Source: a virus
DNA: 16,142 nucleotides
Reading direction: 5' to 3' (one strand)
UHGV virus genome: UHGV-0156413
Of this stretch, positions 50 to 13,149 are shown in pieces. Each line of letters begins with the position of its first letter. Within the stretch, counting starts at the first letter, position 1. The position numbers were made by a program, and so were the translations under genes. The notes under the pieces were generated by a model. The model did not search any database and was not told where the DNA came from. It saw only the letters and a program-made list of their open reading frames with translations.

Positions 50-1063
50 TTACTCTACTGTGGACACTGTGTGGACACTCTCGGCCTCAGTACCACCTCT
101 TAGCGGATTAAGAGAAATGGCGTCCTGAAGGTACTCTGGCGCAAAATGAGCGTAAACCATAGTTTGCTCAATCCGCGTGTGACCTAGTATCCGTTGTAGC
201 GTGATAATACTTCCTCCATTAATCATGAAATGAGTGGCAAAGCTGTGCCTTAGTGCATGTGTGGCTTGCCCCATTGGCAAATCCGGTTTTATTGCTTTCA
301 TTGTTCGTCTGAAGCGAGGGTAATCAGCATCAGGGAATAAAAAACCTCGTTTGTTATCCGCGATCATTTTGGCAACAGCCTCTGAGATCGGGACGGTGCG
401 TGGTTTGTTTGTTTTCGTTTTAACAAACGTGACGCGGTTATGGATGATATTTTCTGCTTTCAAACGAGCTGCTTCTCCCCAACGTGCTCCAGTACTCAGG
501 CAAAGAATCGCAATCTTTTTGTTGTCGCCGTCAAGAGCAGCAAGCAGTAAGGCAATTTCTTCCTGCGTGAGATAGCCTGTGTCTGGTTTTTCCTCCTTAA
601 GCCTTTTTGTCCCTCTGATAGGGTGCTCACCAAAGAATAACTCCGCTTCAATCAGGGCTGTAAACATGCCGCTAATACATGTTAAATCACGATTGATACT
701 CGAAGGTTTAATACCCTGACTTCTTCGGGTGGCGCAGTACTGGCTGATAAGCGATTTCGTAATTTGAAATGCGCATGGGTCATTCGTTATTTTTGTGAAG
801 ATTTCAATTTTTCCAAGATTAGATTTCCCATGCTCTTCGTGTTTACCCTTTAAATCCCACCAGATCTGTGTCAGCTCCGACAGACGTCGCTTGTCTGTTG
901 GTTTTGATAGCCATTCTTTATTGTGGTGGTTGTACAACGTGTATTTCTCGAAAGCGACAGCTTCGCTTTTCTTATCAAACTTCCTACGGATGCGTTTTCC
1001 ATTACGTCCAGTAGGGCGGATGTCCACTTCATATCGACCATCATCGAGTTTTTTGATTGCCAT
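50..1063 (-). CDS. int: Tyrosine site-specific integrase (P2 Int-like)
   Basis: 337-aa ORF; C-terminal region HALRHSFATHFMINGG...LGHTRIEQTMVYAH fits the tyrosine-recombinase catalytic signature. Lies downstream of the repressor on the same strand, as in P2. No att core recognised in nt 1-49. Confidence 0.93.
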   Translation of the reverse strand: MAIKKLDDGRYEVDIRPTGRNGKRIRRKFDKKSEAVAFEKYTLYNHHNKEWLSKPTDKRRLSELTQIWWDLKGKHEEHGKSNLGKIEIFTKITNDPCAFQITKSLISQYCATRRSQGIKPSSINRDLTCISGMFTALIEAELFFGEHPIRGTKRLKEEKPDTGYLTQEEIALLLAALDGDNKKIAILCLSTGARWGEAARLKAENIIHNRVTFVKTKTNKPRTVPISEAVAKMIADNKRGFLFPDADYPRFRRTMKAIKPDLPMGQATHALRHSFATHFMINGGSIITLQRILGHTRIEQTMVYAHFAPEYLQDAISLNPLRGGTEAESVHTVSTVE

Positions 1064-3360: not shown

Positions 3361-3632
3361 GTATTCGTATTGAAATTGGCGAACGTTATGTCGTTACCAG
3401 TGACAGCTTTCAGTTTATTCTCCACGAGAAAAAGAGAGCGGAAAGCGGTAAAAACGCCGGTCAGGAATGGCTGTCGGTGGTTGGTTATTACCCGAAATTA
3501 AGCCAGCTCGTTTCCGGCCTGATGCATCACGATATTCTGACCGGAAGCGCAAAGTCTTTTGCTGATTTAAACGCGCAGGTTGAGCAACTCAGCAAGCGTT
3601 GTTCAGAGGTTTTTGGCTCATATGGCAGTTAA
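3357..3632 (+). CDS. Hypothetical early protein (P2 orf83 position)
   Basis: 91-aa ORF, start overlaps upstream stop; its 3' end overlaps the start of A. Confidence 0.6.
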   Translation: MSIRIEIGERYVVTSDSFQFILHEKKRAESGKNAGQEWLSVVGYYPKLSQLVSGLMHHDILTGSAKSFADLNAQVEQLSKRCSEVFGSYGS

Positions 3633-5898
3633 AGCCTCCGGGCGTTGTGTCCCTCCGTCAGCATTTGCCGCAGGCACCGGTAAGACGTTTACCGGTGCTT
3701 ATGCATGGAACGCGCCACGCGAGGCCGTCGGGCGCGAAAGACCCCTTACACGTGACGAGATGCGTCAGGTGCAAGGTGTTTTATCCACGATTAACCGCCT
3801 GCCTTACTTTTTGCGCTCGCTGTTTACTTCACGCTATGACTACATCCGGCGCAATAAAAGCCCGGTGCACGGGTTTTATTTCCTCACATCCACTTTTCAG
3901 CGTCGTTTATGGCCGCGCATTGAGCGTGTGAATCAGCGCCATGAAATGAACACCGACGCGTCGTTACTGTTTCTGGCAGAGCGTGACCACTATGCGCGCC
4001 TGCCTGGAATGAATGACAAGGAGCTGAAAAAGTTTGCTGCCCGTATCTCATCGCAGCTTTTCATGATGTATGAGGAACTCAGCGATGCCTGGGTGGATGC
4101 GCATGGCGAAAAAGAATCGCTGTTTACGGATGAGGCGCAGGCTCACCTGTATGGTCATGTTGCTGGCGCTGCACGTGCTTTCAATATTTCCCCTCTCTAC
4201 TGGAAAAAATACCGTAAAGGGCAGATGACCACGAGGCAGGCATATTCTGCCATTGCCCGTCTGTTTAACGATGAGTGGTGGACTCATCAGCTTAAAGGCC
4301 AGCGTATGCGCTGGCATGAGGCGTTACTGATTGCTGTCGGGGAGGTCAATAAAGACCGTTCTCCTTATGCCAGTAAACATGCCATTCGTGATGTGCGCGC
4401 GCGCCGCCAGGCAAATCTGGAATTTCTTAAATCGTGTGACCTTGAAAACAGGGAAACCGGCGAACGCATCGACCTTATCAGTAAGGTTATGGGCAGTATT
4501 TCTAATCCAGAAATTCGCCGGATGGAGCTGATGAACACCATTGCCGGTATTGAGCGTTACGCCGCCGCAGAGGGTGATGTGGGGATGTTTATCACGCTGA
4601 CCGCGCCGTCAAAGTATCACCCGACACGTCAGGTCGGAAAAGGCGAAAGTAAAGCCGTCCAGCTAAATCACGGCTGGAACGATGAGGCATTTAATCCAAA
4701 GGATGCGCAGCGTTATCTCTGCCGCATCTGGAGCCTGATGCGCACGGCATTCAAGGATAATGATTTACAGGTCTACGGTTTGCGTGTCGTCGAGCCACAC
4801 CACGACGGAACGCCGCACTGGCATATGATGCTTTTTTGTAATCCACGCCAGCGTAACCAGATTATTGAAATCATGCGTCGCTACGCGCTCAAAGAGGATG
4901 GCGACGAAAGAGGAGCTGCGCGAAACCGTTTTCAGGCAAAACATCTTAACCGGGGCGGTGCTGCGGGATATATCGCGAAATACATTTCAAAAAACATCGA
5001 CGGCTATGCACTGGATGGTCAGCTCGATAACGACACCGGCAGGCCGCTGAAAGACACTGCAGCGGCTGTTACCGCATGGGCGTCAACGTGGCGCATCCCG
5101 CAATTTAAAACGGTTGGCCTGCCGACAATGGGGGCTTACCGTGAACTACGCAAATTGCCTCGCGGCGTCAGCATTGCTGATGAGTTTGACGAACGCGTTG
5201 AGGCTGCACGTGCCGCCGCAGACAGTGGTGATTTTGCGTTGTATATCAGCGCACAGGGTGGGGCAAATGTTCCGCGTGATTGCCAGACTGTCAGAGTCGC
5301 CCGTAGCCCGTCGGATGACGTTAACGAGTACGAGGAAGAAGTCGAGAGAGTGGTCGGCATTTACGCGCCGCATCTCGGCGCGCGTCATATTCATATCACC
5401 AGAACGACGGACTGGCGCATTGTGCCGAAAGTTCCGGTCGTTGAGCCTTTGACTTTAAAAAGCGGCATCGCCGCGCCTCGGAGTCCTGTCAATAACTGTG
5501 GAAAGCTCACCGGTGGTGATACTTCGTTACCGGCTCCCACACCTTCTGAGCACGCCGCAGCAGTGCTTAATCTGGTTGATGACGGTGTTATCGAATGGAA
5601 TGACACGGAGGTCGTGAGGGCGCTCAGGGGGGCATTAAAACACGACCTGAGAACACCAAATCGTCAGCAAAGAAACGGAAGCCCGTTAAAACCACATGAA
5701 ATTGCACCATCGGCCAGACTGACCCGGTCGGAAAGAATGCAAATTACCCGTATCCGCGTTGACCTTGCTCAGAACGGTATCAGGCCGCAGCGATGGGAGC
5801 TTGAGGCGCTGGCGCGTGGCGCGACCGTAAATTATTACGGGAAATCTTTCAATTATCAGGTCGCTGATGAGTGGCCTGGATTTTTGTTACCCATTTGA
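3622..5898 (+). CDS. A: Rolling-circle replication initiator (P2 gpA-like HUH endonuclease)
   Basis: Start taken at ATG 3622 (MAVKASG...) rather than the upstream ORF-track start. Contains HUH-like motif PHWHMMLF and tyrosine motif GYIAKYISKNIDGY typical of Rep/gpA nickases. Confidence 0.9.
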   Translation: MAVKASGRCVPPSAFAAGTGKTFTGAYAWNAPREAVGRERPLTRDEMRQVQGVLSTINRLPYFLRSLFTSRYDYIRRNKSPVHGFYFLTSTFQRRLWPRIERVNQRHEMNTDASLLFLAERDHYARLPGMNDKELKKFAARISSQLFMMYEELSDAWVDAHGEKESLFTDEAQAHLYGHVAGAARAFNISPLYWKKYRKGQMTTRQAYSAIARLFNDEWWTHQLKGQRMRWHEALLIAVGEVNKDRSPYASKHAIRDVRARRQANLEFLKSCDLENRETGERIDLISKVMGSISNPEIRRMELMNTIAGIERYAAAEGDVGMFITLTAPSKYHPTRQVGKGESKAVQLNHGWNDEAFNPKDAQRYLCRIWSLMRTAFKDNDLQVYGLRVVEPHHDGTPHWHMMLFCNPRQRNQIIEIMRRYALKEDGDERGAARNRFQAKHLNRGGAAGYIAKYISKNIDGYALDGQLDNDTGRPLKDTAAAVTAWASTWRIPQFKTVGLPTMGAYRELRKLPRGVSIADEFDERVEAARAAADSGDFALYISAQGGANVPRDCQTVRVARSPSDDVNEYEEEVERVVGIYAPHLGARHIHITRTTDWRIVPKVPVVEPLTLKSGIAAPRSPVNNCGKLTGGDTSLPAPTPSEHAAAVLNLVDDGVIEWNDTEVVRALRGALKHDLRTPNRQQRNGSPLKPHEIAPSARLTRSERMQITRIRVDLAQNGIRPQRWELEALARGATVNYYGKSFNYQVADEWPGFLLPI

Positions 5899-6158
5899 GT
5901 GAAAATGCAGCGTGATTTTATATGCCTTTGAATGGATTATGCGAAGCGCCTCTAAGGCAGATGAGGAGCAATAGCATGCTGAAGTAGAAGGCTAAATTGT
6001 ATTGAATCGCTAGCATGTAATTTAAGGCAGCTATTTGATTCGAGTCATAAAAGAGCATCTATTTCGGCTAATAAAACCATTGCGAGTGACCTTTTGTCGA
6101 AGCATAATTCATCTCGAGCGAAGTCTTGCTAGTCTTTCATCGGAATGATGACAGGCGC

Positions 6159-6188
6159 AAAAAAACCACCCTGGCAGGTGGTTTTTTT
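6159..6188. terminator. Bidirectional rho-independent terminator
   Basis: A7-CCACC (6159-6170), loop CTGGCA, GGTGG-T7 (6177-6188): GC stem flanked by an A-run and a T-run, so a U-tract follows the hairpin in either orientation. Lies downstream of A and just 3' of the minus-strand small ORF. Confidence 0.6.
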
Positions 6189-6200
6189 GTTTGAAGCATA

Positions 6201-6314
6201 CTAAAGAATAATACTTACATGGATATTACTGACGTTTACTGACAAACCACTTGGACTACCATATGGATAGCCAAAGAGGGCCAGAACGAGAATGCAGTAA
6301 TAGCACTTCTTCAT
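6201..6314 (-). CDS. Putative small hydrophobic peptide (37 aa; not in the ORF track)
   Basis: Minus-strand ATG at 6314-6312 preceded by CAGGAGGAGAT; translation MKKCYYCILVLALFGYPYGSPSGLSVNVSNIHVSIIL then stop; terminator immediately 3'. No homology assessed. Confidence 0.3.
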   Translation of the reverse strand: MKKCYYCILVLALFGYPYGSPSGLSVNVSNIHVSIIL

Positions 6315-6884
6315 ATCTCCTCCTGTAAGCAGAGGGCAATTTCCGCCGATATATGCGCTTCTAAGGCGGAGTTAATATTTAGCGAAGTCTTGCCCTGAAA
6401 TAATGCTCTGTTTAAACGCAAAGTGATCTGGCATATCACCGAACAGAGAGCCTGAACAACACAACATATAGTATGTCGTTGTTTCTGGTTGCATTTTATG
6501 TTGTGTAATACTGGTTTTGCATCAAGGATGTTTGAGCTTTTTTTGATATAGCTCAAAGTAAAAAGCAGGGACTACGGATGATAAGGTATTGAAAGCAATG
6601 TAAATTTTTTAAAGTTATTGGTGGCTAAAAAATGCACGATTTCAATGTGGCGGACTTAAATAAGCAATTAAAAAAGTCATAAATATCACTAAAATCATGG
6701 TGTTACGTTTTTTGTGGGAGCTGCGGTGACGCTTAAGTTGATTTGTCATTAAATAAGCCGTGCATGCAACAAGTGAATGTTTTTGCATGCGTCGGGGATG
6801 CCCGTTCCCGCTGCTTGCGGTCAGAGCTGGTGCGGATCCATAGTATCTATGCAACTGCATTAAAACCGCCACATGAAGCGGGCG

Positions 6885-6903
6885 GGCGAGGCGGGGAAAG
6901 CAC
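6885..6903. other. Putative cos site (19-nt cohesive-end sequence of P2-type phages)
   Basis: GGCGAGGCGGGGAAAGCAC at 6885-6903 matches the P2 cohesive-end sequence as I recall it; sits between A and Q as expected for a circularly permuted prophage. Memory-based, not searched. Confidence 0.55.
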
Positions 6904-6939
6904 CGCGCGTAAGATAAACAGAAGAGCGAAGGATTATGG

Positions 6940-6968
6940 TTGAGTATTTGTGTTTTTGTACATATGAT
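6940..6968 (+). promoter_or_regulatory. Candidate sigma70 promoter for the cargo operon
   Basis: TTGAGT (6940-6945), 17-bp spacer, TATGAT (6963-6968); followed by inverted repeat GTGTTT...AAACAC (about 6975-6997) and a GGAG Shine-Dalgarno before ATG 7010. Confidence 0.3.
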
Positions 6969-7009
6969 AAAAAGGTGTTTACGCTTAAAAACACATCAAA
7001 GGAGATGAT

Positions 7010-8311
7010 ATGGAAAATATAAAGATTGATAAGTTTCTCACTATTCAAAAAGTTGATATTCCTCTTAAGAAAGTGAATATATTTATTGGGCCTCAGGCAC
7101 AGGGGAAAAGTGTCATTGCAAAGCTAATAAAATATTTTAAAGATTATCCTATGGATATACTACGAGCTTCAACAGAGGGTAAAACTAAAAGAGATATATT
7201 GAAGGAGCAAAAGAATAAGTTTAGTAAAATTTTCCCTCAGCAGTATTGGGCTGATGATGAGTTTTTTATTGAGTATAGTAATAAGCACTATTGGGTGCGG
7301 ATTACTAATCGAAAAAATAGCAAAGGGTCATTGAAAATAGCCCTTTCTGAGAATTTAACGAAGACGATTGCTAAACTTCGTTTGATTGTACGAAAGGATT
7401 TAGATGAAAATATTGAGAATTCACTTGCAGAAAGCGTTACGAGAAGGCGTAAACGCGGAATTGAACATGAATTGCGAGTATGTCTTTCTCTAGGATTGTT
7501 TTCAGAACCAGAAACAAAGCTTGAAAGTGTTTTTTATATCCCCGCAGGGCGCTCTTTTTTTGCTAATTTGCAAAAAAATGTGTTTTCATTTTTATCCAGT
7601 AGTATAGAAATTGACTACTTTTTGACAGAGTTTGGTTCTCTGTATGAACAAACAAAAAAATTATTTAACCAAGATTACATGATTAGGATGCTTAGGGGGG
7701 CTGTGCCTCAACATGTTAATAAACTTGTGGAGGAGTTGATTTGCGGAAAATATATAACAGAAAAGGGTGAGGATTTTATTCGTCATGCTGCTAAGAAGAC
7801 GAATCTTAACAACTCGAGCTCAGGGCAGCAAGAAGCGTTACCAATGGCTTTAATGTTATCCTCATGGCCGTATTTACAGTCTATGACTAGTAAGAGTTTT
7901 ATTATTGAGGAGCCGGAGGCTCATCTGTTTCCTTCTGCCCAAGCAAAAGTTGTATCTTTAATAGCCTCAGCGTATAACCAAGCAGAAAGCTATTGTAGCT
8001 ATACAATAACAACACATAGTCCATATATTCTAAGTGCCTTCAATAATTTGATTCAAGCAGGTAATGCATTGAAGTGTATTAAGGGCAAGAATAATACCGA
8101 TATCGAACGCTTATATAAGCTTGTTCCAGAGTCTCAAATTATTGATTTTGATGATGTGACAGCTTATATGGTTAATGCTGGGAAAGTGACGGAAATACTG
8201 GATTCCGAACTAAATATATTAGATGCGAATGAAATAGATAGGATTTCCTCTATTTTTTCAGAGACTTTTGATGCATTGATTGATATCGAATATTCGGCTA
8301 CTGTGAATTAG
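7010..8311 (+). CDS. ABC-type ATPase of the AAA_21/OLD-like family (candidate defence ATPase)
   Basis: 433 aa. Walker A GPQAQGKS (aa 27-34), signature-like SSGQQ (aa 269-273), Walker B/D-loop FIIEEPEAHLFP (aa 297-308), H-loop TTHSP (aa 334-338). AT-rich codon usage unlike the phage backbone. Confidence 0.85.
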   Translation: MENIKIDKFLTIQKVDIPLKKVNIFIGPQAQGKSVIAKLIKYFKDYPMDILRASTEGKTKRDILKEQKNKFSKIFPQQYWADDEFFIEYSNKHYWVRITNRKNSKGSLKIALSENLTKTIAKLRLIVRKDLDENIENSLAESVTRRRKRGIEHELRVCLSLGLFSEPETKLESVFYIPAGRSFFANLQKNVFSFLSSSIEIDYFLTEFGSLYEQTKKLFNQDYMIRMLRGAVPQHVNKLVEELICGKYITEKGEDFIRHAAKKTNLNNSSSGQQEALPMALMLSSWPYLQSMTSKSFIIEEPEAHLFPSAQAKVVSLIASAYNQAESYCSYTITTHSPYILSAFNNLIQAGNALKCIKGKNNTDIERLYKLVPESQIIDFDDVTAYMVNAGKVTEILDSELNILDANEIDRISSIFSETFDALIDIEYSATVN

Positions 8312-8319
8312 GTGATTGA

Positions 8320-8757
8320 ATGTGTAAAAATTGCAAAGGAAAAACAAAAAATAAAATCATTGTGCTATCTGATAAAGGAACGTCAACGCAATTGTCAGTC
8401 ACAAATGATAATGAGTTGGAAGTTGAGCATAAGTTAATAGATGGTTGCGCTATTGTTGTTGGAGAGCGGTGTGATCATTATTTGAAGATTTATAACAATC
8501 AGGATGTTTCACATCTTTTTGTTGAACTTAAAGGAAGTGATGTTGAAAAAGCTGTTAAACAGATAGTGACAACTTTAAAGTCAGGTGTGATTAATGTAGG
8601 TGCTAAAGAAAAAAAACATGGTGCTATTGTTAGCACTAGGAATCCGCTAAACTCACCAGAAACCAATAGGTTAAAGAAGAAAATTCTTTTGAGTGACGGA
8701 GTGAATTTGCATTTCTATAAAATGAAGGCGCAGCAAAAAATAACTTCTTTTACATGA
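8320..8757 (+). CDS. Small partner protein, possible PD-(D/E)xK-like nuclease or effector (hypothetical)
   Basis: 145 aa; starts 8 bp after the ATPase stop with AGGTGA upstream. N-terminal CxxC (C2, C5); candidate catalytic core D52 ... E69-L-K71 (ERCDH ... FVELKG). Assignment is tentative. Confidence 0.7.
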   Translation: MCKNCKGKTKNKIIVLSDKGTSTQLSVTNDNELEVEHKLIDGCAIVVGERCDHYLKIYNNQDVSHLFVELKGSDVEKAVKQIVTTLKSGVINVGAKEKKHGAIVSTRNPLNSPETNRLKKKILLSDGVNLHFYKMKAQQKITSFT

Positions 8758-8770
8758 AGTGTTCTCTTGT

Positions 8771-8794
8771 ACAGGCATGCATTTGCATGCCTGT
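8771..8794. terminator. Perfect palindrome between convergent cargo operon and Q (terminator or protein-binding site)
   Basis: ACAGGCATGCA tt TGCATGCCTGT (11-bp arms); a short T-run (ATCTTTTA) follows about 8 nt downstream on the plus strand. Confidence 0.35.
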
Positions 8795-8860
8795 CGTGTA
8801 ATCTTTTACACTATATTTGTGTTGGTTCTAATCTTGTTATGTGTTTGTTTCGGTGATGGG

Positions 8861-9880
8861 TCATAATGAATAAGTTCGAAAGCGAAATACATCTTCGCCA
8901 ACCCAACAGTTAATTTCTTTACATCGCTCTTGGAGGAACGTTAGCTCGTTGCGTACAAAGACTTGTGCTGCTTTTGTTACATCTCCAAATCCTCCTGTGT
9001 TGTTGGGCATCATTCCTATCATTTGGGGAGGCACGCGATGAGCACTCATTAGATCTTCAGCACTTGCTTTTTTGATATTAAAAAAATCGTCCTTCGTTGC
9101 CACTTCACTGAGCGGGATAATTTTAATGCCGTCGGCTTTCCCCTGCGGGGCATAGAGAAACAGATTTTTAAAGTTATTGCGGCCTTTCGACTTAACCATG
9201 TTTTCGCGAAGCATTTCGATATCGTTGCGATCCTGCACGGCATCAGTGACGTACATGATGTATCCGGCATGAGCGCCGTTTTCGTAATACTTGCGGCGGA
9301 ACAGCGTGGCCGACTCATTCAGCCAGGCAGAGTTAAGGGCGCTGAGATATTCGGGCAGGCCGTACAGCTCCTGATTAATATCCGGCTCCAGCAGGTGAAA
9401 CACGGAACCGGGCGCGAAGGCTGTCGGCTCGTTGAAGGACGGCACCCACCAGTAAACATCCTCTTCCACACCACGGCGGGTATATTTTGCCGGTGAGGTT
9501 TCCAGCCTGATAACTTTACCGGTGGTGCTGTAACGCTTTTCCAGAAACGCATTACCGAACACCAGAAAATCCAGCACAAAGCGGCTGAAATCCTGCTGGG
9601 AAAGCCACGGATGCGGGATAAATGTCGAGGCCAGAATATTGCGTTTGACGTAAATCGGCGAGCTGTGATGCACGGCAGCACGCAGGCTTTTTGCCAGACC
9701 GGTAAAGCTGACCGGCGGCTCATACCATCTGCCGTTACTGATGCACTCGACGTAATCCAGAATGTCACGGCGGTCGAGTACCGGCACCGGCTCACCAAAG
9801 GTGAATGCTTCCATTTTCGGGGCGCTGGCGGTGATTGTTTTTGCCGCAGGTCGCGGTGTTTTCCCTTTTTTCTTGCTCAT
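8861..9880 (-). CDS. Q: Portal protein (P2 gpQ-like)
   Basis: 339-aa ORF immediately downstream of and overlapping the large-terminase stop (ATGA); conserved P2 Q-P arrangement; size close to P2 Q as recalled. Confidence 0.9.
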   Translation of the reverse strand: MSKKKGKTPRPAAKTITASAPKMEAFTFGEPVPVLDRRDILDYVECISNGRWYEPPVSFTGLAKSLRAAVHHSSPIYVKRNILASTFIPHPWLSQQDFSRFVLDFLVFGNAFLEKRYSTTGKVIRLETSPAKYTRRGVEEDVYWWVPSFNEPTAFAPGSVFHLLEPDINQELYGLPEYLSALNSAWLNESATLFRRKYYENGAHAGYIMYVTDAVQDRNDIEMLRENMVKSKGRNNFKNLFLYAPQGKADGIKIIPLSEVATKDDFFNIKKASAEDLMSAHRVPPQMIGMMPNNTGGFGDVTKAAQVFVRNELTFLQERCKEINCWVGEDVFRFRTYSL

Positions 9881-11292
9881 CAGTAAAACTCCAGAATGGT
9901 GGATGTCAGCGGAGTGCTGATACCGGCGGTGAGTGGCTCATTTAACAGGGCGTGCATGGTTGCCCAGGCGAGGTCGGCGTGGCTGGCTTCCTCGCTGCGG
10001 CTGGCCTCATAGGTGGCGCTGCGTCCGCTGCTGGTCATGGTCTTGCGGATAGCCATGAACGAGCTGGTGATGTCGGTGGCGCTGACGTCATATTCCAGAC
10101 AGCCACGGCGGATGACGTCTTTGGCCTTGAGCACCATTGCGGTTTTCATTTCCGGCGTGTAGCGGATATCGCGCGCGGCGGGATAGAACGAGCGCACGAG
10201 CTGGAACACGCCGACACCGAGGCCGGTGGCATCAATACCGATGTATTCGACGTTGTATTTTTCGGTGAGTTTGCGGATGGACTCCGCCTGGGTGGCAAAG
10301 TCCATGCCTTTCCACTGGTGACGCTCAAGTATTCTGAATTTGCCACCGGCCACCACCGGCGGTGCCAGCACCACGCATCCGGCGCTGTCGCCACGGTGTG
10401 ACGGGTCGTAACCAATCCATACCGGGCGGGAGCCGAACGGATTTGCGGCAAACGGCGCGTAGTCTTCCCATTCTTCCAGCGTGTCGACCATGCAGCGTTG
10501 CAGCTCCTCGAACGGGAACACCGATGCCTTGTCGTCAACAAATTCACACATGAACAGGTTTTTAAAATCGTCGGCGCTGTTTTCGCGTTTGAGCTGCTCA
10601 ATGTCGAACAATGTGCAGCCGCCTTTCAGGGCGTCCTCAATGGTGACAATCTGCCGCCACTGGCCGTCCGCACAGAGAAGACCACCGGCAAGGGCGTTAT
10701 GACTGACGTCGATTTCCACACGTTCGGCGGCGCTGGCGCGTCCCCGGTTGAACAGTTCACCCGACCAGAACGGGTAGGCGTCGTGCGCCAGTGTGGACGG
10801 GGTGGAGAAATAGGTCGAGCGCAGGTGACTCTGTGAGGCCATACCTGATGCCACCTTACGCAGTACCTGAAAATTCGGGATCCAGAAAATCTCGTCGACG
10901 TACAGGTCGCCGTTATGGCTCTGTGCGGTGTTGGAGTTGGTGCCGAGAAAAATCAGTTTTGCGCCGTTATTGCCCAGGACAATCGGGTCACCGGTCAGGT
11001 CAACGTCAACCAGCCGGGCAAAGGCGATGATGTATTCGCGGAACACATACGCCTGCGTTTTACTGGCCGACAGAAAAATCTGGTTATGACCGGTTTTCAG
11101 GGCGCGCAGCAGCGCCTCGCGGGAAAAATAAAACGTCGCGCCAATCTGGCGGGATTTCAGGATATCGCGGATGCGGTGCTCAAGCCCGGCGCGATACCAG
11201 TGCAACTGATATTCGAAAGACTGCTCAAAGAAAATCTGCTCCAGCTTTTCGATGGCCTCGTCACTGAAAAAATTCTTTTTCGGTTTGCCGCA
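9880..11292 (-). pseudogene. P: Large terminase subunit (P2 gpP-like), 5'-truncated
   Basis: Reading frame open from 11292 down to 9880 (about 470 codons) with no in-frame ATG at its 5' end; the frame runs straight into the opposite-strand O remnant. Contains deviant Walker-A-like KSRQIGAT. P2 P is about 590 aa as recalled. Confidence 0.7.
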
Positions 11293-12017
11293 TTAACCTG
11301 GAACATCTGCGCGGCATCCTGCCTGACGGTATTTTTAAGCGTTATGGCGATGTGGTCGAACTGAAGGCCGAAAAGATTGACGATGATTCGGCGCTGAAAG
11401 GCAAATGGGCGCTGTTTGCGAAAATCACCCCGACCGATGACCTTATCGCGATGAACAAGGCCGCGCAGAAGGTCTATACCTCAATGGAAATTCAGCCGAA
11501 CTTTGCCAATACCGGCAAATGTTATCTGGTGGGTCTGGCCGTCACCGATGACCCGGCAAGCCTCGGCACGGAATACCTGGAATTCTGCCGCACGGCAAAA
11601 CACAACCCCCTGAACCGCTTCAAATTAAGCCCTGAAAACCTGATTTCAGTGGCAACGCCTGTTGAGCTGGAATTTGAAGACCTGCCTGAAACCGTGTTCA
11701 CCGCCCTGACCGAAAAGGTGAAATCCATTTTTGGCCGCAAACAGGCCAGCGATGACGCCCGTCTGAATGACGTGCATGAAGCGGTGACCGCTGTCGCTGA
11801 ACATGTGCAGGAAAAACTGAGCGCCACTGAGCAGCGCCTCGCTGAGATGGAAACTGCCTTTTCCGCTCTTAAGCAGGAGGTGACTGACAGGGCGGATGAA
11901 ACCAGCCAGGCATTCACCCGCCTGAAAAACAGTCTCGACAGCACCGAAAGTCTGACCCAGCAGCGCCGCAGCAAGGCCACCGGTGGTAGCGGTGACGCCC
12001 TGATGACGAACTGCTGA
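11268..12017 (+). pseudogene. O: Capsid scaffold protein (P2 gpO-like), 5'-truncated
   Basis: Frame open from 11268 (just after an in-frame TGA at 11265-11267) with no ATG before GTG 11352; N-terminal residues of the P2 O protein (about 284 aa as recalled) are absent. Confidence 0.7.
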
Positions 12018-12075: not shown

Positions 12076-13149
12076 ATGCGCCAGGAAACCCGCTTTAAAT
12101 TTAATGCCTACCTGTCCCGTGTTGCCGAACTGAACGGCATCGACGCCGGTGATGTGTCGAAAAAATTCACCGTTGAACCGTCGGTCACCCAGACCCTGAT
12201 GAACACCATGCAGGAGTCCTCTGATTTTCTGACCCGCATCAACATTGTGCCGGTCAGCGAAATGAAAGGGGAAAAAATTGGTATTGGTGTCACCGGCTCC
12301 ATCGCCAGCACCACCGACACCGCCGGTGGCACCGAGCGTCAGCCGAAGGACTTCTCGAAGCTGGCGTCAAACAAGTACGAATGCGACCAGATTAACTTCG
12401 ATTTTTATATCCGCTACAAAACTCTTGACCTGTGGGCGCGTTATCAGGATTTCCAGCTCCGTGTCCGTAACGCCATTATCAAACGCCAGTCCCTTGATTT
12501 AATCATGGCCGGTTTTAACGGCGTGAGGCGTGCCGAAACCTCTGACCGCAGCAGCAATCCGATGCTGCAGGATGTGGCGGTCGGCTGGCTGCAGAAATAC
12601 CGCAATGAAGCACCGGCGCGCGTGATGAGCAAGGTCACTGACGAGGAAGGTCACACGACCTCTGAGGTCATCCGCGTGGGTAAGGGCGGTGATTATGCCA
12701 GCCTTGATGCACTGGTGATGGATGCGACCAACAACCTGATTGAGCCGTGGTATCAGGAAGACCCTGACCTTGTGGTGATTGTGGGGCGTCAGCTACTGGC
12801 GGACAAGTATTTTCCCATCGTCAACAAGGAGCAGGACAACAGCGAAATGCTGGCCGCTGACGTCATCATCAGCCAGAAACGCATCGGCAACCTGCCAGCG
12901 GTACGCGTCCCGTACTTCCCGGCGGATGCGATGCTCATCACGAAGCTGGAAAACCTGTCCATCTACTACATGGATGACAGCCATCGCCGCGTGATTGAGG
13001 AAAACCCGAAACTCGACCGTGTGGAGAACTACGAGTCAATGAACATTGATTACGTGGTGGAGGACTACGCCGCCGGTTGTCTGGTGGAAAAAATTAAGGT
13101 CGGTGATTTCTCCACACCGGCTAAAGCGACCGCAGAGCCGGGAGCGTAA
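12076..13149 (+). CDS. N: Major capsid protein (P2 gpN-like)
   Basis: 357-aa ORF in the conserved O-N-M-L order; length equals P2 N as recalled; AGGA Shine-Dalgarno upstream. Confidence 0.93.
   Translation: MRQETRFKFNAYLSRVAELNGIDAGDVSKKFTVEPSVTQTLMNTMQESSDFLTRINIVPVSEMKGEKIGIGVTGSIASTTDTAGGTERQPKDFSKLASNKYECDQINFDFYIRYKTLDLWARYQDFQLRVRNAIIKRQSLDLIMAGFNGVRRAETSDRSSNPMLQDVAVGWLQKYRNEAPARVMSKVTDEEGHTTSEVIRVGKGGDYASLDALVMDATNNLIEPWYQEDPDLVVIVGRQLLADKYFPIVNKEQDNSEMLAADVIISQKRIGNLPAVRVPYFPADAMLITKLENLSIYYMDDSHRRVIEENPKLDRVENYESMNIDYVVEDYAAGCLVEKIKVGDFSTPAKATAEPGA

What the first reader, a model, noticed from the sequence alone, without database searches (positions are those of the whole stretch)
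7010..8311. ATPase has the full ABC/OLD-like motif set split by a long insertion
Walker A (GPQAQGKS, aa 27-34) is separated by about 235 residues from the signature-like SSGQQ, Walker B/D-loop FIIEEPEAHLFP and H-loop TTHSP. This split organisation is typical of SMC/RecF-like and OLD-family ABC ATPases used by abortive-infection and defence systems, where the insertion often mediates dimerisation or sensing. The about 95-residue C-terminal extension after the H-loop is acidic and could be a partner-docking region.
Basis: seen in the sequence. Interest (0 to 1): 0.6.

Follow-up and report, generated by a model that had tools for sequence, protein, structure and literature searches.

The report
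WonAB anti-phage system in P2 prophage

Summary

It is not a lone ATPase. A 145-aa gene 8 bases downstream (8320-8757) encodes a small PD-(D/E)xK-like nuclease (D52, E69-x-K71). This gene follows the ATPase in 74 of 80 related loci from many phyla.

The pair is a member of the WonAB family (Adams et al. 2025, PMC12137116):
- Identity is 37% over 412 columns to about 400 aa of V. cholerae WonA, all that the supplement holds (E 1e-75), and 39% to WonB (E 1e-12).
- Every residue mutated in that study aligns with an identical residue here.
- The near-identical E. coli E24377A genes are hit 2 of 198 in that paper's Supplementary Table 4.

The 35%-GC cassette sits in the gpA-gpQ defence hotspot of a P2-like prophage, directly after cos. 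It occurs in 10 of 5,426 complete E. coli genomes.

By homology, the WonA dimer senses infection and licenses WonB, which arrests translation without degrading DNA. The trigger and the target remain unknown. The finding is already known, so interest is low.

The parts
6885..6903 (+). P2-type cos cohesive-end sequence GGCGAGGCGGGGAAAGCAC. It marks the left boundary of the cassette.
   Evidence: Exact 19-nt match with 0 expected in 200 shuffles. The cos sequence was recalled from my own knowledge of P2. The same 19-mer lies about 100 nt from the end of the P2 record NC_070905. Homology to P2 stops at window 6909.
6940..6968 (+). Candidate sigma-70 promoter for the operon (TTGAGT, 17 nt, TATGAT).
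   Evidence: Consensus scan, 9 of 12 matches. The region as a whole has no more such sites than shuffled sequence, so this is only a candidate.
6999..7004 (+). Shine-Dalgarno sequence AAGGAG, 5 nt before the wonA ATG.
   Evidence: Read from the sequence.
7010..8311 (+). wonA homologue: a 433-aa OLD-like ABC ATPase, the proposed sensor/regulator.
   Evidence: Pfam AAA_15 4e-20 and AAA_21 7e-9. PADLOC PDC-M29A 2.3e-31. 37% identity over 412 columns to V. cholerae WonA, E 1e-75. It differs by 2 aa from E24377A RS06440, which is listed as WonA in Suppl. Table 4 of PMC12137116. AF2 model pLDDT 86.6. Foldseek top hits are PtuA, Rad50 and GajA.
7088..7111 (+). Walker A, GPQAQGKS (aa 27-34). K33 corresponds to V. 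cholerae WonA K34.
   Evidence: K34A abolishes defence in V. cholerae.
7538..7552 (+). Q-loop equivalent IPAGR (aa 177-181). R181 corresponds to WonA R182. This is the OLD-type arginine variant.
   Evidence: P178, A179 and R181 are invariant, and I177 and G180 nearly invariant, in 56 homologues. Aligned to WonA. R182A abolishes defence.
7817..7831 (+). ABC signature SSGQQ (aa 270-274).
   Evidence: Invariant in 56 homologues.
7898..7933 (+). Walker B plus D-loop, FIIEEPEAHLFP (aa 297-308). E301 corresponds to WonA E300.
   Evidence: E300A abolishes defence.
8009..8023 (+). H-loop TTHSP (aa 334-338). H336 corresponds to WonA H333.
   Evidence: H333A abolishes defence.
8024..8308 (+). C-terminal extension (aa 339-433, net charge about -9). 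This is the proposed WonB docking surface.
   Evidence: Composition. Positions A385, G391, I409, D410, S413, F420 and L423 are conserved. The region is covered by the PDC-M29A and PD-T4-4_A profiles. Docking is an AlphaFold3 prediction for V. cholerae WonAB and was not tested here.
8320..8757 (+). wonB homologue: a 145-aa basic protein (K+R 24, D+E 15) with a variant PD-(D/E)xK nuclease fold, the proposed effector. Its AGGTGA ribosome-binding site overlaps the wonA stop codon.
8473..8532 (+). Predicted WonB catalytic core: D52 (8473-8475) and E69-L-K71 (8524-8532).
   Evidence: E69, K71 and Q81 are invariant and D52 nearly invariant in 59 distant representatives. WonB K71A abolishes defence and toxicity in V. 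cholerae.
8771..8794 (+). 10-bp perfect hairpin (ACAGGCATGC, loop ATTT, GCATGCCTGT) after wonB. It may be a terminator shared with the convergent portal gene.
   Evidence: Read from the sequence. The terminator scan did not flag it because it lacks a T-run.

Best explanation
The ATPase is the WonA component of a WonAB-type two-gene abortive-infection system. The system is carried as low-GC cargo between cos and the portal gene of a P2-like prophage of E. coli.

Shown here:
- WonA is an OLD-like ABC ATPase with all six nucleotide motifs.
- The next gene encodes a small WonB-type PD-(D/E)xK-like nuclease.
- The two genes are almost always adjacent across phyla.
- Both are homologous to the experimentally studied V. 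cholerae WonA and WonB, and every residue mutated there is conserved here.

Inferred by homology from V. cholerae (PMC12137116):
- WonA dimerises head-to-head around two ATP molecules, and WonB binds to its paired C-terminal extensions.
- After an infecting phage has begun DNA replication, ATP-dependent WonA licenses WonB.
- WonB's nuclease activity stops translation, probably by cutting an rRNA or tRNA, while leaving chromosomal DNA intact. No capsids are made, and the infected cell stops growing without lysing.
- Free WonB is removed by Lon, which limits autoimmunity.

The trigger and the substrate are unknown in any member of the family.
For: Motifs and their invariance.

Family profiles: Pfam AAA_15 and AAA_21 above cut-off. 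PADLOC PDC-M29A 2.3e-31 and PDC-M29B 2.4e-4. V. cholerae WonA and WonB hit the same PDC-M29 models.

Direct BLASTP to V. cholerae: WonA 37% over 412 columns, E 1e-75. WonB 39% over 80 aa, E 1e-12. The residue equivalences are K33=K34, R181=R182, E301=E300, H336=H333 and WonB K71=K71.

Published catalogue: Suppl. Table 4 of PMC12137116 lists E24377A RS06440 and RS06445 as WonA and WonB, hit 2 of 198. The window proteins differ from these by 2 aa and 1 aa.

Gene linkage: a WonB-family ORF follows the ATPase on the same strand in 74 of 80 genome loci. Three of the six exceptions end at a contig edge. The same pair occurs in a Pseudomonas prophage, the Nostocales chromosome and an Enterobacter prophage.

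Context: the gpA-gpQ interval is the known P2 defence hotspot. GC is 35% against 51-58% in the flanks. The cassette is present in 10 of 5,426 E. coli genomes.

Mechanism in V. cholerae.
Against: No experiment exists for the E. coli version. Its identity to the tested V. cholerae proteins is only 37-39%, so the phage range, the trigger and even the substrate could differ.

The WonA-WonB complex and the WonA dimer were not modelled here.

The related PD-T4-4 complex was inactive on all DNA substrates tested in vitro. That is consistent with a non-DNA target, or with a missing trigger.

The prophage in the window seems defective. This does not by itself say whether the cassette is expressed.
Confidence: 0.88

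Rival explanations
1. It is a relative of WonAB that works differently. On this reading it belongs to the wider 'OLD-ABC ATPase + novel REase' / PD-T4-4 / PDC-M29 group, and its nuclease cuts phage DNA directly, like a restriction-type nuclease-NTPase system, rather than arresting translation.
For: The best PADLOC model is PDC-M29A/B, not a model named WonAB. The C-terminal half matches PD-T4-4_A at 1e-16. PD-T4-4 is classed among the PD-(D/E)xK nuclease-NTPase systems. Identity to the tested WonAB is only 37-39%. The fold neighbours of WonB are DNA endonucleases.
Against: V. cholerae WonA and WonB themselves hit the same PDC-M29 models, so the PADLOC label does not separate them. The partner does not match PD-T4-4_B at E<=1. 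The authors' own WonAB model retrieves the E24377A pair. PD-T4-4 showed no DNA cleavage in vitro. In V. cholerae, genomic DNA stays intact.
Confidence: 0.08
2. It is a toxin-antitoxin pair, as the Pfam AAA_21 description 'putative AbiEii toxin, type IV TA' suggests. On this reading one protein simply neutralises the other, and the pair stabilises the prophage.
For: The AAA_21 hit. The operon is small with tightly packed genes (8-base gap). It lies in a mobile element.
Against: In V. cholerae, WonB is not toxic without WonA or with an ATPase-dead WonA. That rules out simple sequestration. The AAA_21 name is only a family label.
Confidence: 0.03
3. It serves the phage's own DNA handling. On this reading the ABC ATPase plus nuclease is an accessory to cos cleavage or packaging, given its position directly next to cos. 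Alternatively, it is a housekeeping ABC-transporter ATPase.
For: It lies immediately after cos. Rad50 is among the fold neighbours.
Against: P2 itself has only about 170 bp at this place. The cassette is in only 10 of 5,426 E. coli genomes, while the flanking P2 DNA is in more than 2,000. The same pair sits in non-phage chromosomal contexts in cyanobacteria. No membrane protein is nearby, and the best transporter hit is PstB at E 0.079.
Confidence: 0.01

Closest known systems
WonAB (V. cholerae WASA-1 prophage; Adams et al., Nat Microbiol 2025, PMC12137116)
   Same: The operon order is the same in V. cholerae and nearly all loci seen (one catalogued hit lists WonB first), and the protein sizes are similar (433/145 aa here; WonB is 140 aa there). 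All ATPase motifs are shared, including the arginine Q-loop, and so is the D..ExK core. Homology extends over all of the WonA sequence available (the first ~400 aa; the stored cell is cut), at 37%, and reaches 39% for WonB. Both are prophage-borne. The E24377A allele is listed in the authors' table of hits.
   Different: The host and prophage type differ: a P2-like prophage with the cassette in the cos-Q interval, against the 48-kb WASA-1 element with the operon downstream of a regulator gene. Sequence divergence is about 60%. The E. coli WonB keeps three cysteines (C5, C43, C51) that are conserved in most of the family, and V. cholerae WonB lacks two of them. The E. coli version is untested.
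PADLOC candidate PDC-M29 (guilt-by-embedding candidates, bioRxiv 10.1101/2024.01.29.577857)
   Same: It is the best-scoring PADLOC models for both proteins (A 2.3e-31, B 2.4e-4), and it also scores highly for V. cholerae WonA/B.
   Different: The match to PDC-M29A is split into three stretches and the match to PDC-M29B is weak, so PDC-M29 is probably a sister clade. It is an untested candidate with no published description that I could find.
PD-T4-4 (Vassallo et al. 2022, PMC9519451)
   Same: An ABC ATPase plus a PD-(D/E)xK nuclease in a two-gene operon. The C-terminal half of the ATPase, including the extension, matches PD-T4-4_A (1e-16).
   Different: The N-terminal inserts differ. The partner does not match PD-T4-4_B. 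PD-T4-4 was found in an ICE-like element.
Septu PtuAB and the retron I-A effectors
   Same: PtuA is the closest solved fold (Foldseek E about 2e-9, TM 0.4-0.5). The logic is the same: an ABC ATPase that controls a small separate nuclease.
   Different: PtuB is an HNH nuclease, whereas WonB is PD-(D/E)xK-like. Sequence identity is only 10-16%.
P2 Old, class 1/2 OLD nucleases, Gabija GajA, PARIS AriAB
   Same: They share the OLD-type ABC ATPase head with an arginine Q-loop. P2 old occupies the same gpA-gpQ hotspot.
   Different: Those systems carry a TOPRIM or DUF4435 nuclease, fused or as the partner. No TOPRIM or DUF4435 is detected here.

Membership tests
WonAB | An OLD-like ABC ATPase (WonA) with Walker A, an R-type Q-loop, the ABC signature, Walker B, the D-loop and the H-loop. 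| tested here: met
   All motifs are present and invariant. K33, R181, E301 and H336 align with the mutated WonA residues K34, R182, E300 and H333.
WonAB | Sequence homology along the length of V. cholerae WonA. | tested here: met
   BLASTP 37% identity over 412 columns, E 1e-75. Only the first 399 aa of WonA were available from the supplement.
WonAB | An adjacent co-oriented WonB gene encoding a variant PD-(D/E)xK nuclease with a catalytic ExK. | tested here: met
   Gene 8320-8757 starts 8 bases after wonA. It is 39% identical to WonB, E 1e-12, with K71 aligned to K71. E69 and K71 are invariant. The fold support is moderate.
WonAB | Retrieved by the authors' MacSyFinder WonAB model. | tested here: met
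   The E24377A alleles, which differ by 2 aa and 1 aa from the window, are hit 2 of 198 in Suppl. Table 4. The model itself was not run on the window.
WonAB | Both genes are required for anti-phage protection by lysis-independent abortive infection with translation arrest. | not testable with these tools
   Shown only for V. cholerae WonAB.
WonAB | A WonA dimer with WonB bound to the paired C-terminal extensions. | not tested
   No complex prediction was available. Indirect support only: the extension is conserved, and the charges are complementary, about -9 for the tail against +9 for WonB.
OLD family nucleases / Gabija GajA | A TOPRIM nuclease domain fused C-terminally to the ABC ATPase. | tested here: not met
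   No TOPRIM hit in Pfam. The PADLOC GajA and ATPase-Toprim matches cover only ATPase residues 248-381. The 95-aa tail is too short and is not TOPRIM-like.
PARIS (AriA/AriB) | A DUF4435/TOPRIM-like AriB partner. | tested here: not met
   The partner has no DUF4435 hit and no AriB hit. The AriA profile hit reflects the generic AAA_15 head.
Septu (PtuA/PtuB) | An HNH nuclease partner, PtuB. | tested here: not met
   The partner shows no HNH or PtuB hit. NCBIfam PtuA scores 30 bits against a cut-off of 500.
PD-T4-4 | Both PD-T4-4_A and PD-T4-4_B profiles match. | tested here: not met
   The A profile matches only residues 234-426 (1e-16). The B profile gives no hit at E<=1.
PDC-M29 (PADLOC candidate) | Both the A and B profiles match in adjacent genes. 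| tested here: inconclusive
   A 2.3e-31 but in three stretches, and B 2.4e-4. PADLOC's own system rules and thresholds were not run.
ABC transporter nucleotide-binding subunit | A transporter-type NBD with a membrane permease encoded nearby. | tested here: not met
   The best transporter model is PstB at E 0.079, 12 bits against a cut-off of 343. The neighbours are phage genes and WonB.

The most novel reading that the evidence does not exclude
The E. coli P2-borne WonAB could be functionally distinct from the V. cholerae prototype. It might have a different trigger or phage range, for example rival P2-like phages or P4 satellites that share the cos site next to it. It might also have a metal-binding cysteine cluster (C5, C43, C51 beside catalytic D52) that the V. 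cholerae protein lacks. As a native E. coli allele, it could be the tractable system in which the unknown WonA trigger and WonB RNA target are finally identified.
Probability: 0.15. Interest if true: 0.45.

Novelty: already known. Interest (0 to 1): 0.22.

Why it matters
The result turns an anonymous 'AAA family ATPase + hypothetical protein' annotation into a named and experimentally grounded defence system. It also shows that WonAB is one of the cargoes of the P2 gpA-gpQ hotspot in E. coli. The trigger that WonA senses and the nucleic acid that WonB cuts are still unknown. A native E. coli allele with only 10 carriers among 5,426 complete genomes could therefore be a convenient model. It adds no new kind of biology.

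Tried and rejected
- OLD, Gabija, PARIS and Septu membership was rejected: there is no TOPRIM, DUF4435 or HNH, and the partner is unrelated to theirs.
- PD-T4-4 was rejected as the identity because the B profile does not match.
- The toxin-antitoxin/AbiEii reading was rejected on the published genetics.
- The ABC transporter reading was rejected.
- A sequence search of the PDB gave only marginal hits: OLD 6p74 at E 0.006 and PtuA at 0.35 for the ATPase, and nothing meaningful for the partner.
- The first protein search for the partner found only 18 relatives. The exhaustive profile search was needed to see the family.
- Paper searches for 'PDC-M29' and for the RefSeq accessions found nothing. 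The main text of Rousset 2022 does not mention this cassette.
- The Rfam scan of the whole window found nothing.
- No deposited phage genome carries a close copy; the best tblastn identity is 26-34%.
- The Krishnan et al. 2020 ABC ATPase classification, the source of the 'OLD-ABC ATPase + novel REase' name, is not in the searchable library. That link rests on PMC12137116 and PMC12409358.
- The promoter scan is not enriched over shuffles.

Full report
**Setting.** The window is a P2-like prophage of E. coli. It carries, in order:
- the integrase (50-1063, minus strand);
- the early genes and the replication protein gpA (3580-5898; Pfam Phage_GPA 7e-124);
- the portal gpQ (8861-9880, minus strand);
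- then terminase, scaffold, capsid (12076-13149) and head genes.

Bases 5900-8860 are 99.5% identical to E. coli E24377A (NC_009801). There the two genes are annotated 'AAA family ATPase' and 'hypothetical protein'. GC falls to 35-37% across about 6500-9000, against 51-58% in the flanks. That is typical of acquired cargo.

**Checking the observation.**
- ORF 7010-8311 translates to 433 aa.
- Every motif is at the stated residue: GPQAQGKS 27-34, SSGQQ 270-274, FIIEEPEAHLFP 297-308, TTHSP 334-338.
- The 95-residue tail has 16 acidic and 7 basic residues.
- In an alignment of 56 homologues at 40-79% identity, these motifs are invariant.
It is the Q-loop equivalent, with arginine in place of glutamine.
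- The protein passes the Pfam cut-offs for AAA_15 and AAA_21. SMC_N is below its cut-off.

**Shape of the ATPase.**
- An AlphaFold2 model built from the 56-sequence alignment is confident (pLDDT 86.6, pTM 0.89).
- Between Walker A and the signature it shows three strands (85-112), a helical hairpin (114-164, lower confidence), the Q-loop strand (171-177), a disordered loop (190-198) and a helical bundle (203-244).
- This corresponds to the Insert 1/Insert 2 elaboration described for defence ABC ATPases. It is not an unusual split.
- The closest solved structures are PtuA of Septu and the retron I-A effectors, then Rad50 and GajA (Foldseek E about 2e-9, TM 0.4-0.5, 10-16% identity).

**The partner gene.**
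- Eight bases after the stop codon lies a 145-aa ORF (8320-8757). Its ribosome-binding site overlaps the stop.
- It has no Pfam or NCBIfam family and only a weak PADLOC hit, PDC-M29B at 2.4e-4. The ATPase's best PADLOC hit is the matching PDC-M29A at 2.3e-31.
- An exhaustive profile search found 2,323 cluster representatives (972 at E<=1e-10). The 150 listed are nearly all 130-170 aa.
- C5, N29, D41, C51, E69, K71 and Q81 are invariant. C43, D52, L70 and G72 are nearly so. This gives a D...E-x-K arrangement.
- The Foldseek top hits are BamHI, PaqCI, FokI and MUS81, but none is significant.
- The nuclease fold is therefore supported mainly by the motif, and moderately by structure.

**Linkage of the two genes.**
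- The pair recurs in a Pseudomonas prophage, the Nostocales chromosome and an Enterobacter prophage.
- I fetched 80 genome loci with ATPase relatives (35-69% identity) from cyanobacteria, Methylococcales, Bacteroidota, Verrucomicrobiota, Desulfobacterota and others.
- In 74 of them a partner-family ORF lies immediately downstream on the same strand, often overlapping the ATPase stop.
- Three of the six exceptions end at a contig edge.

**Identification.**
- The literature on PD-T4-4 led to Adams et al. 2025 (PMC12137116), which describes WonAB in the WASA-1 prophage of V. cholerae.
- WonA is an OLD-like ABC ATPase. WonB is a variant PD-(D/E)xK nuclease.
- Both genes are required for defence against phage ICP1, and in E. 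coli against Vequintavirinae.
- Defence is abolished by WonA K34A, R182A, E300A or H333A, or by WonB K71A.
- Supplementary Table 4 of that paper lists E. coli E24377A ECE24377A_RS06440 as WonA and RS06445 as WonB, hit 2 of 198.
- The window proteins differ from those by two residues and one residue respectively.
- Using the V. cholerae IEC224 sequences printed in the same table, BLASTP gives 37% identity over 412 columns for WonA (E 1e-75) and 39% over 80 residues for WonB (E 1e-12).
- The mutated residues align with K33, R181, E301 and H336 of the window ATPase, and with K71 of the partner.
- V. cholerae WonA and WonB also hit PADLOC PDC-M29A/B. That untested PADLOC candidate therefore belongs to the same wider family.

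**How it most likely works.** Everything in this paragraph was shown in V. cholerae and is inferred here by homology.
- Protection holds at low MOI and growth arrests at high MOI. Infected cells swell but do not lyse.
- Phage DNA replication starts almost normally, but capsids are not assembled.
- WonB made in excess is lethal only if active WonA is present. This excludes a simple toxin-antitoxin scheme.
- Genomic DNA stays intact while translation stops. The authors therefore suggest an rRNA or tRNA target.
- WonB is degraded by Lon.
- AlphaFold3 places WonB on the surface formed by the dimerised C-terminal extensions of WonA.
It also fits the opposite net charges found here, about -9 for the tail and +9 for the partner.
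- The trigger is unknown, and no escape phages were obtained.

**Genomic position.**
- The exact P2 cohesive-end sequence lies at 6885-6903. I recalled the sequence from memory, and it was found with no mismatch.
- Homology to P2 ends at 6909.
- The cassette (6910-8860) therefore fills the cos-to-portal interval, which in P2 is only about 170 bp.
- The whole gpA-gpQ interval is the recognised P2 defence hotspot, which holds old and tin in P2 itself.
- The cassette is found in exactly 10 of 5,426 complete E. coli genomes. All copies are chromosomal and at least 99% identical.
- No close copy is found in any deposited phage genome.

**Verdict.** The ATPase is not an OLD, Gabija, PARIS or Septu protein, because it has no TOPRIM, DUF4435 or HNH domain. 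It is WonA of a WonAB system. The family was published in 2025 and this locus is in its table of hits, so the finding is already known. What remains open is the trigger, the substrate, the phage range of the E. coli allele and the role of the conserved cysteines. These are questions about the family, not discoveries made in this window.

Noticed in passing
window 6885-6909 and 6910-8860: The P2 cos sequence lies immediately upstream of the cassette. wonAB therefore occupies the cos-to-portal interval, the extreme left end of the packaged genome. That interval is only about 170 bp in P2, where old and tin lie on the other (gpA) side of cos. In eight other E. coli strains the cos-Q cassette is the same while the gpA-cos segment differs (GNAT plus hypothetical genes in strain 2452). 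The two sides of cos therefore vary independently.
   Followed up: partly
window about 11285-11288 (junction); terminase 9880-11205, scaffold 11352-12017: Compared with the intact P2-like prophage of strain 2452, the window lacks 659 bp. The missing stretch spans the 5' end of the large terminase gene, the divergent P/O promoter region and the start of the scaffold gene gpO. The prophage is probably unable to package. E24377A carries a different and larger decay (truncated portal, IS21 in the tape-measure gene) but keeps wonAB intact.
   Followed up: partly
window 5899-6884: About 1 kb between gpA and cos has no long ORF and no annotation in RefSeq, yet flanking P2-like DNA from the 5900-8860 query (mostly this segment, judging by the listed rows) matches in more than 2,000 E. 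coli genomes. It is about 90% identical to P2 (window 5801-6705). By eye it holds an A-run/hairpin/T-run at about 6158-6189, which the terminator scan did not report. It also holds a 37-aa hydrophobic ORF (6201-6314, minus strand, MKKCYYCILVLALFGYPYG...) preceded by a strong GGAGGAGA ribosome-binding site. There are no Rfam hits.
   Followed up: no
window 8320-8757 (WonB residues C5, C43, C51; also C2): Three cysteines flanking the catalytic D52 are invariant or nearly so across 59 distant WonB-family representatives. This suggests a structural metal site. V. cholerae WonB lacks the equivalents of C5 and C43, so the site is not universal.
   Followed up: partly
window 7010-8757; PADLOC models PDLC04562 and PDLC04563: The untested PADLOC candidate PDC-M29A/B is the best PADLOC match for this pair and for the cyanobacterial pair. 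For V. cholerae it is the best match for WonB, and second to the generic AriA model for WonA. PDC-M29 and WonAB therefore appear to name overlapping families, a nomenclature redundancy.
   Followed up: partly
L005 6846-7682 (Nostocales, downstream of the WonAB-like pair): In the Dolichospermum/Nostocales locus the pair is followed by a 134-aa gene with no family and a 141-aa HNH endonuclease gene on the same strand. These may be an extra effector or a neighbouring system.
   Followed up: no
L003 (Pseudomonas sp. PDM27) and L006 (Enterobacter cloacae): WonAB-like pairs also sit in non-P2 prophages. In Pseudomonas the pair is next to the S24 repressor, and in Enterobacter it lies between replication and RusA/tail-fibre genes. 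The module moves between prophage cargo slots of different phage types.
   Followed up: no
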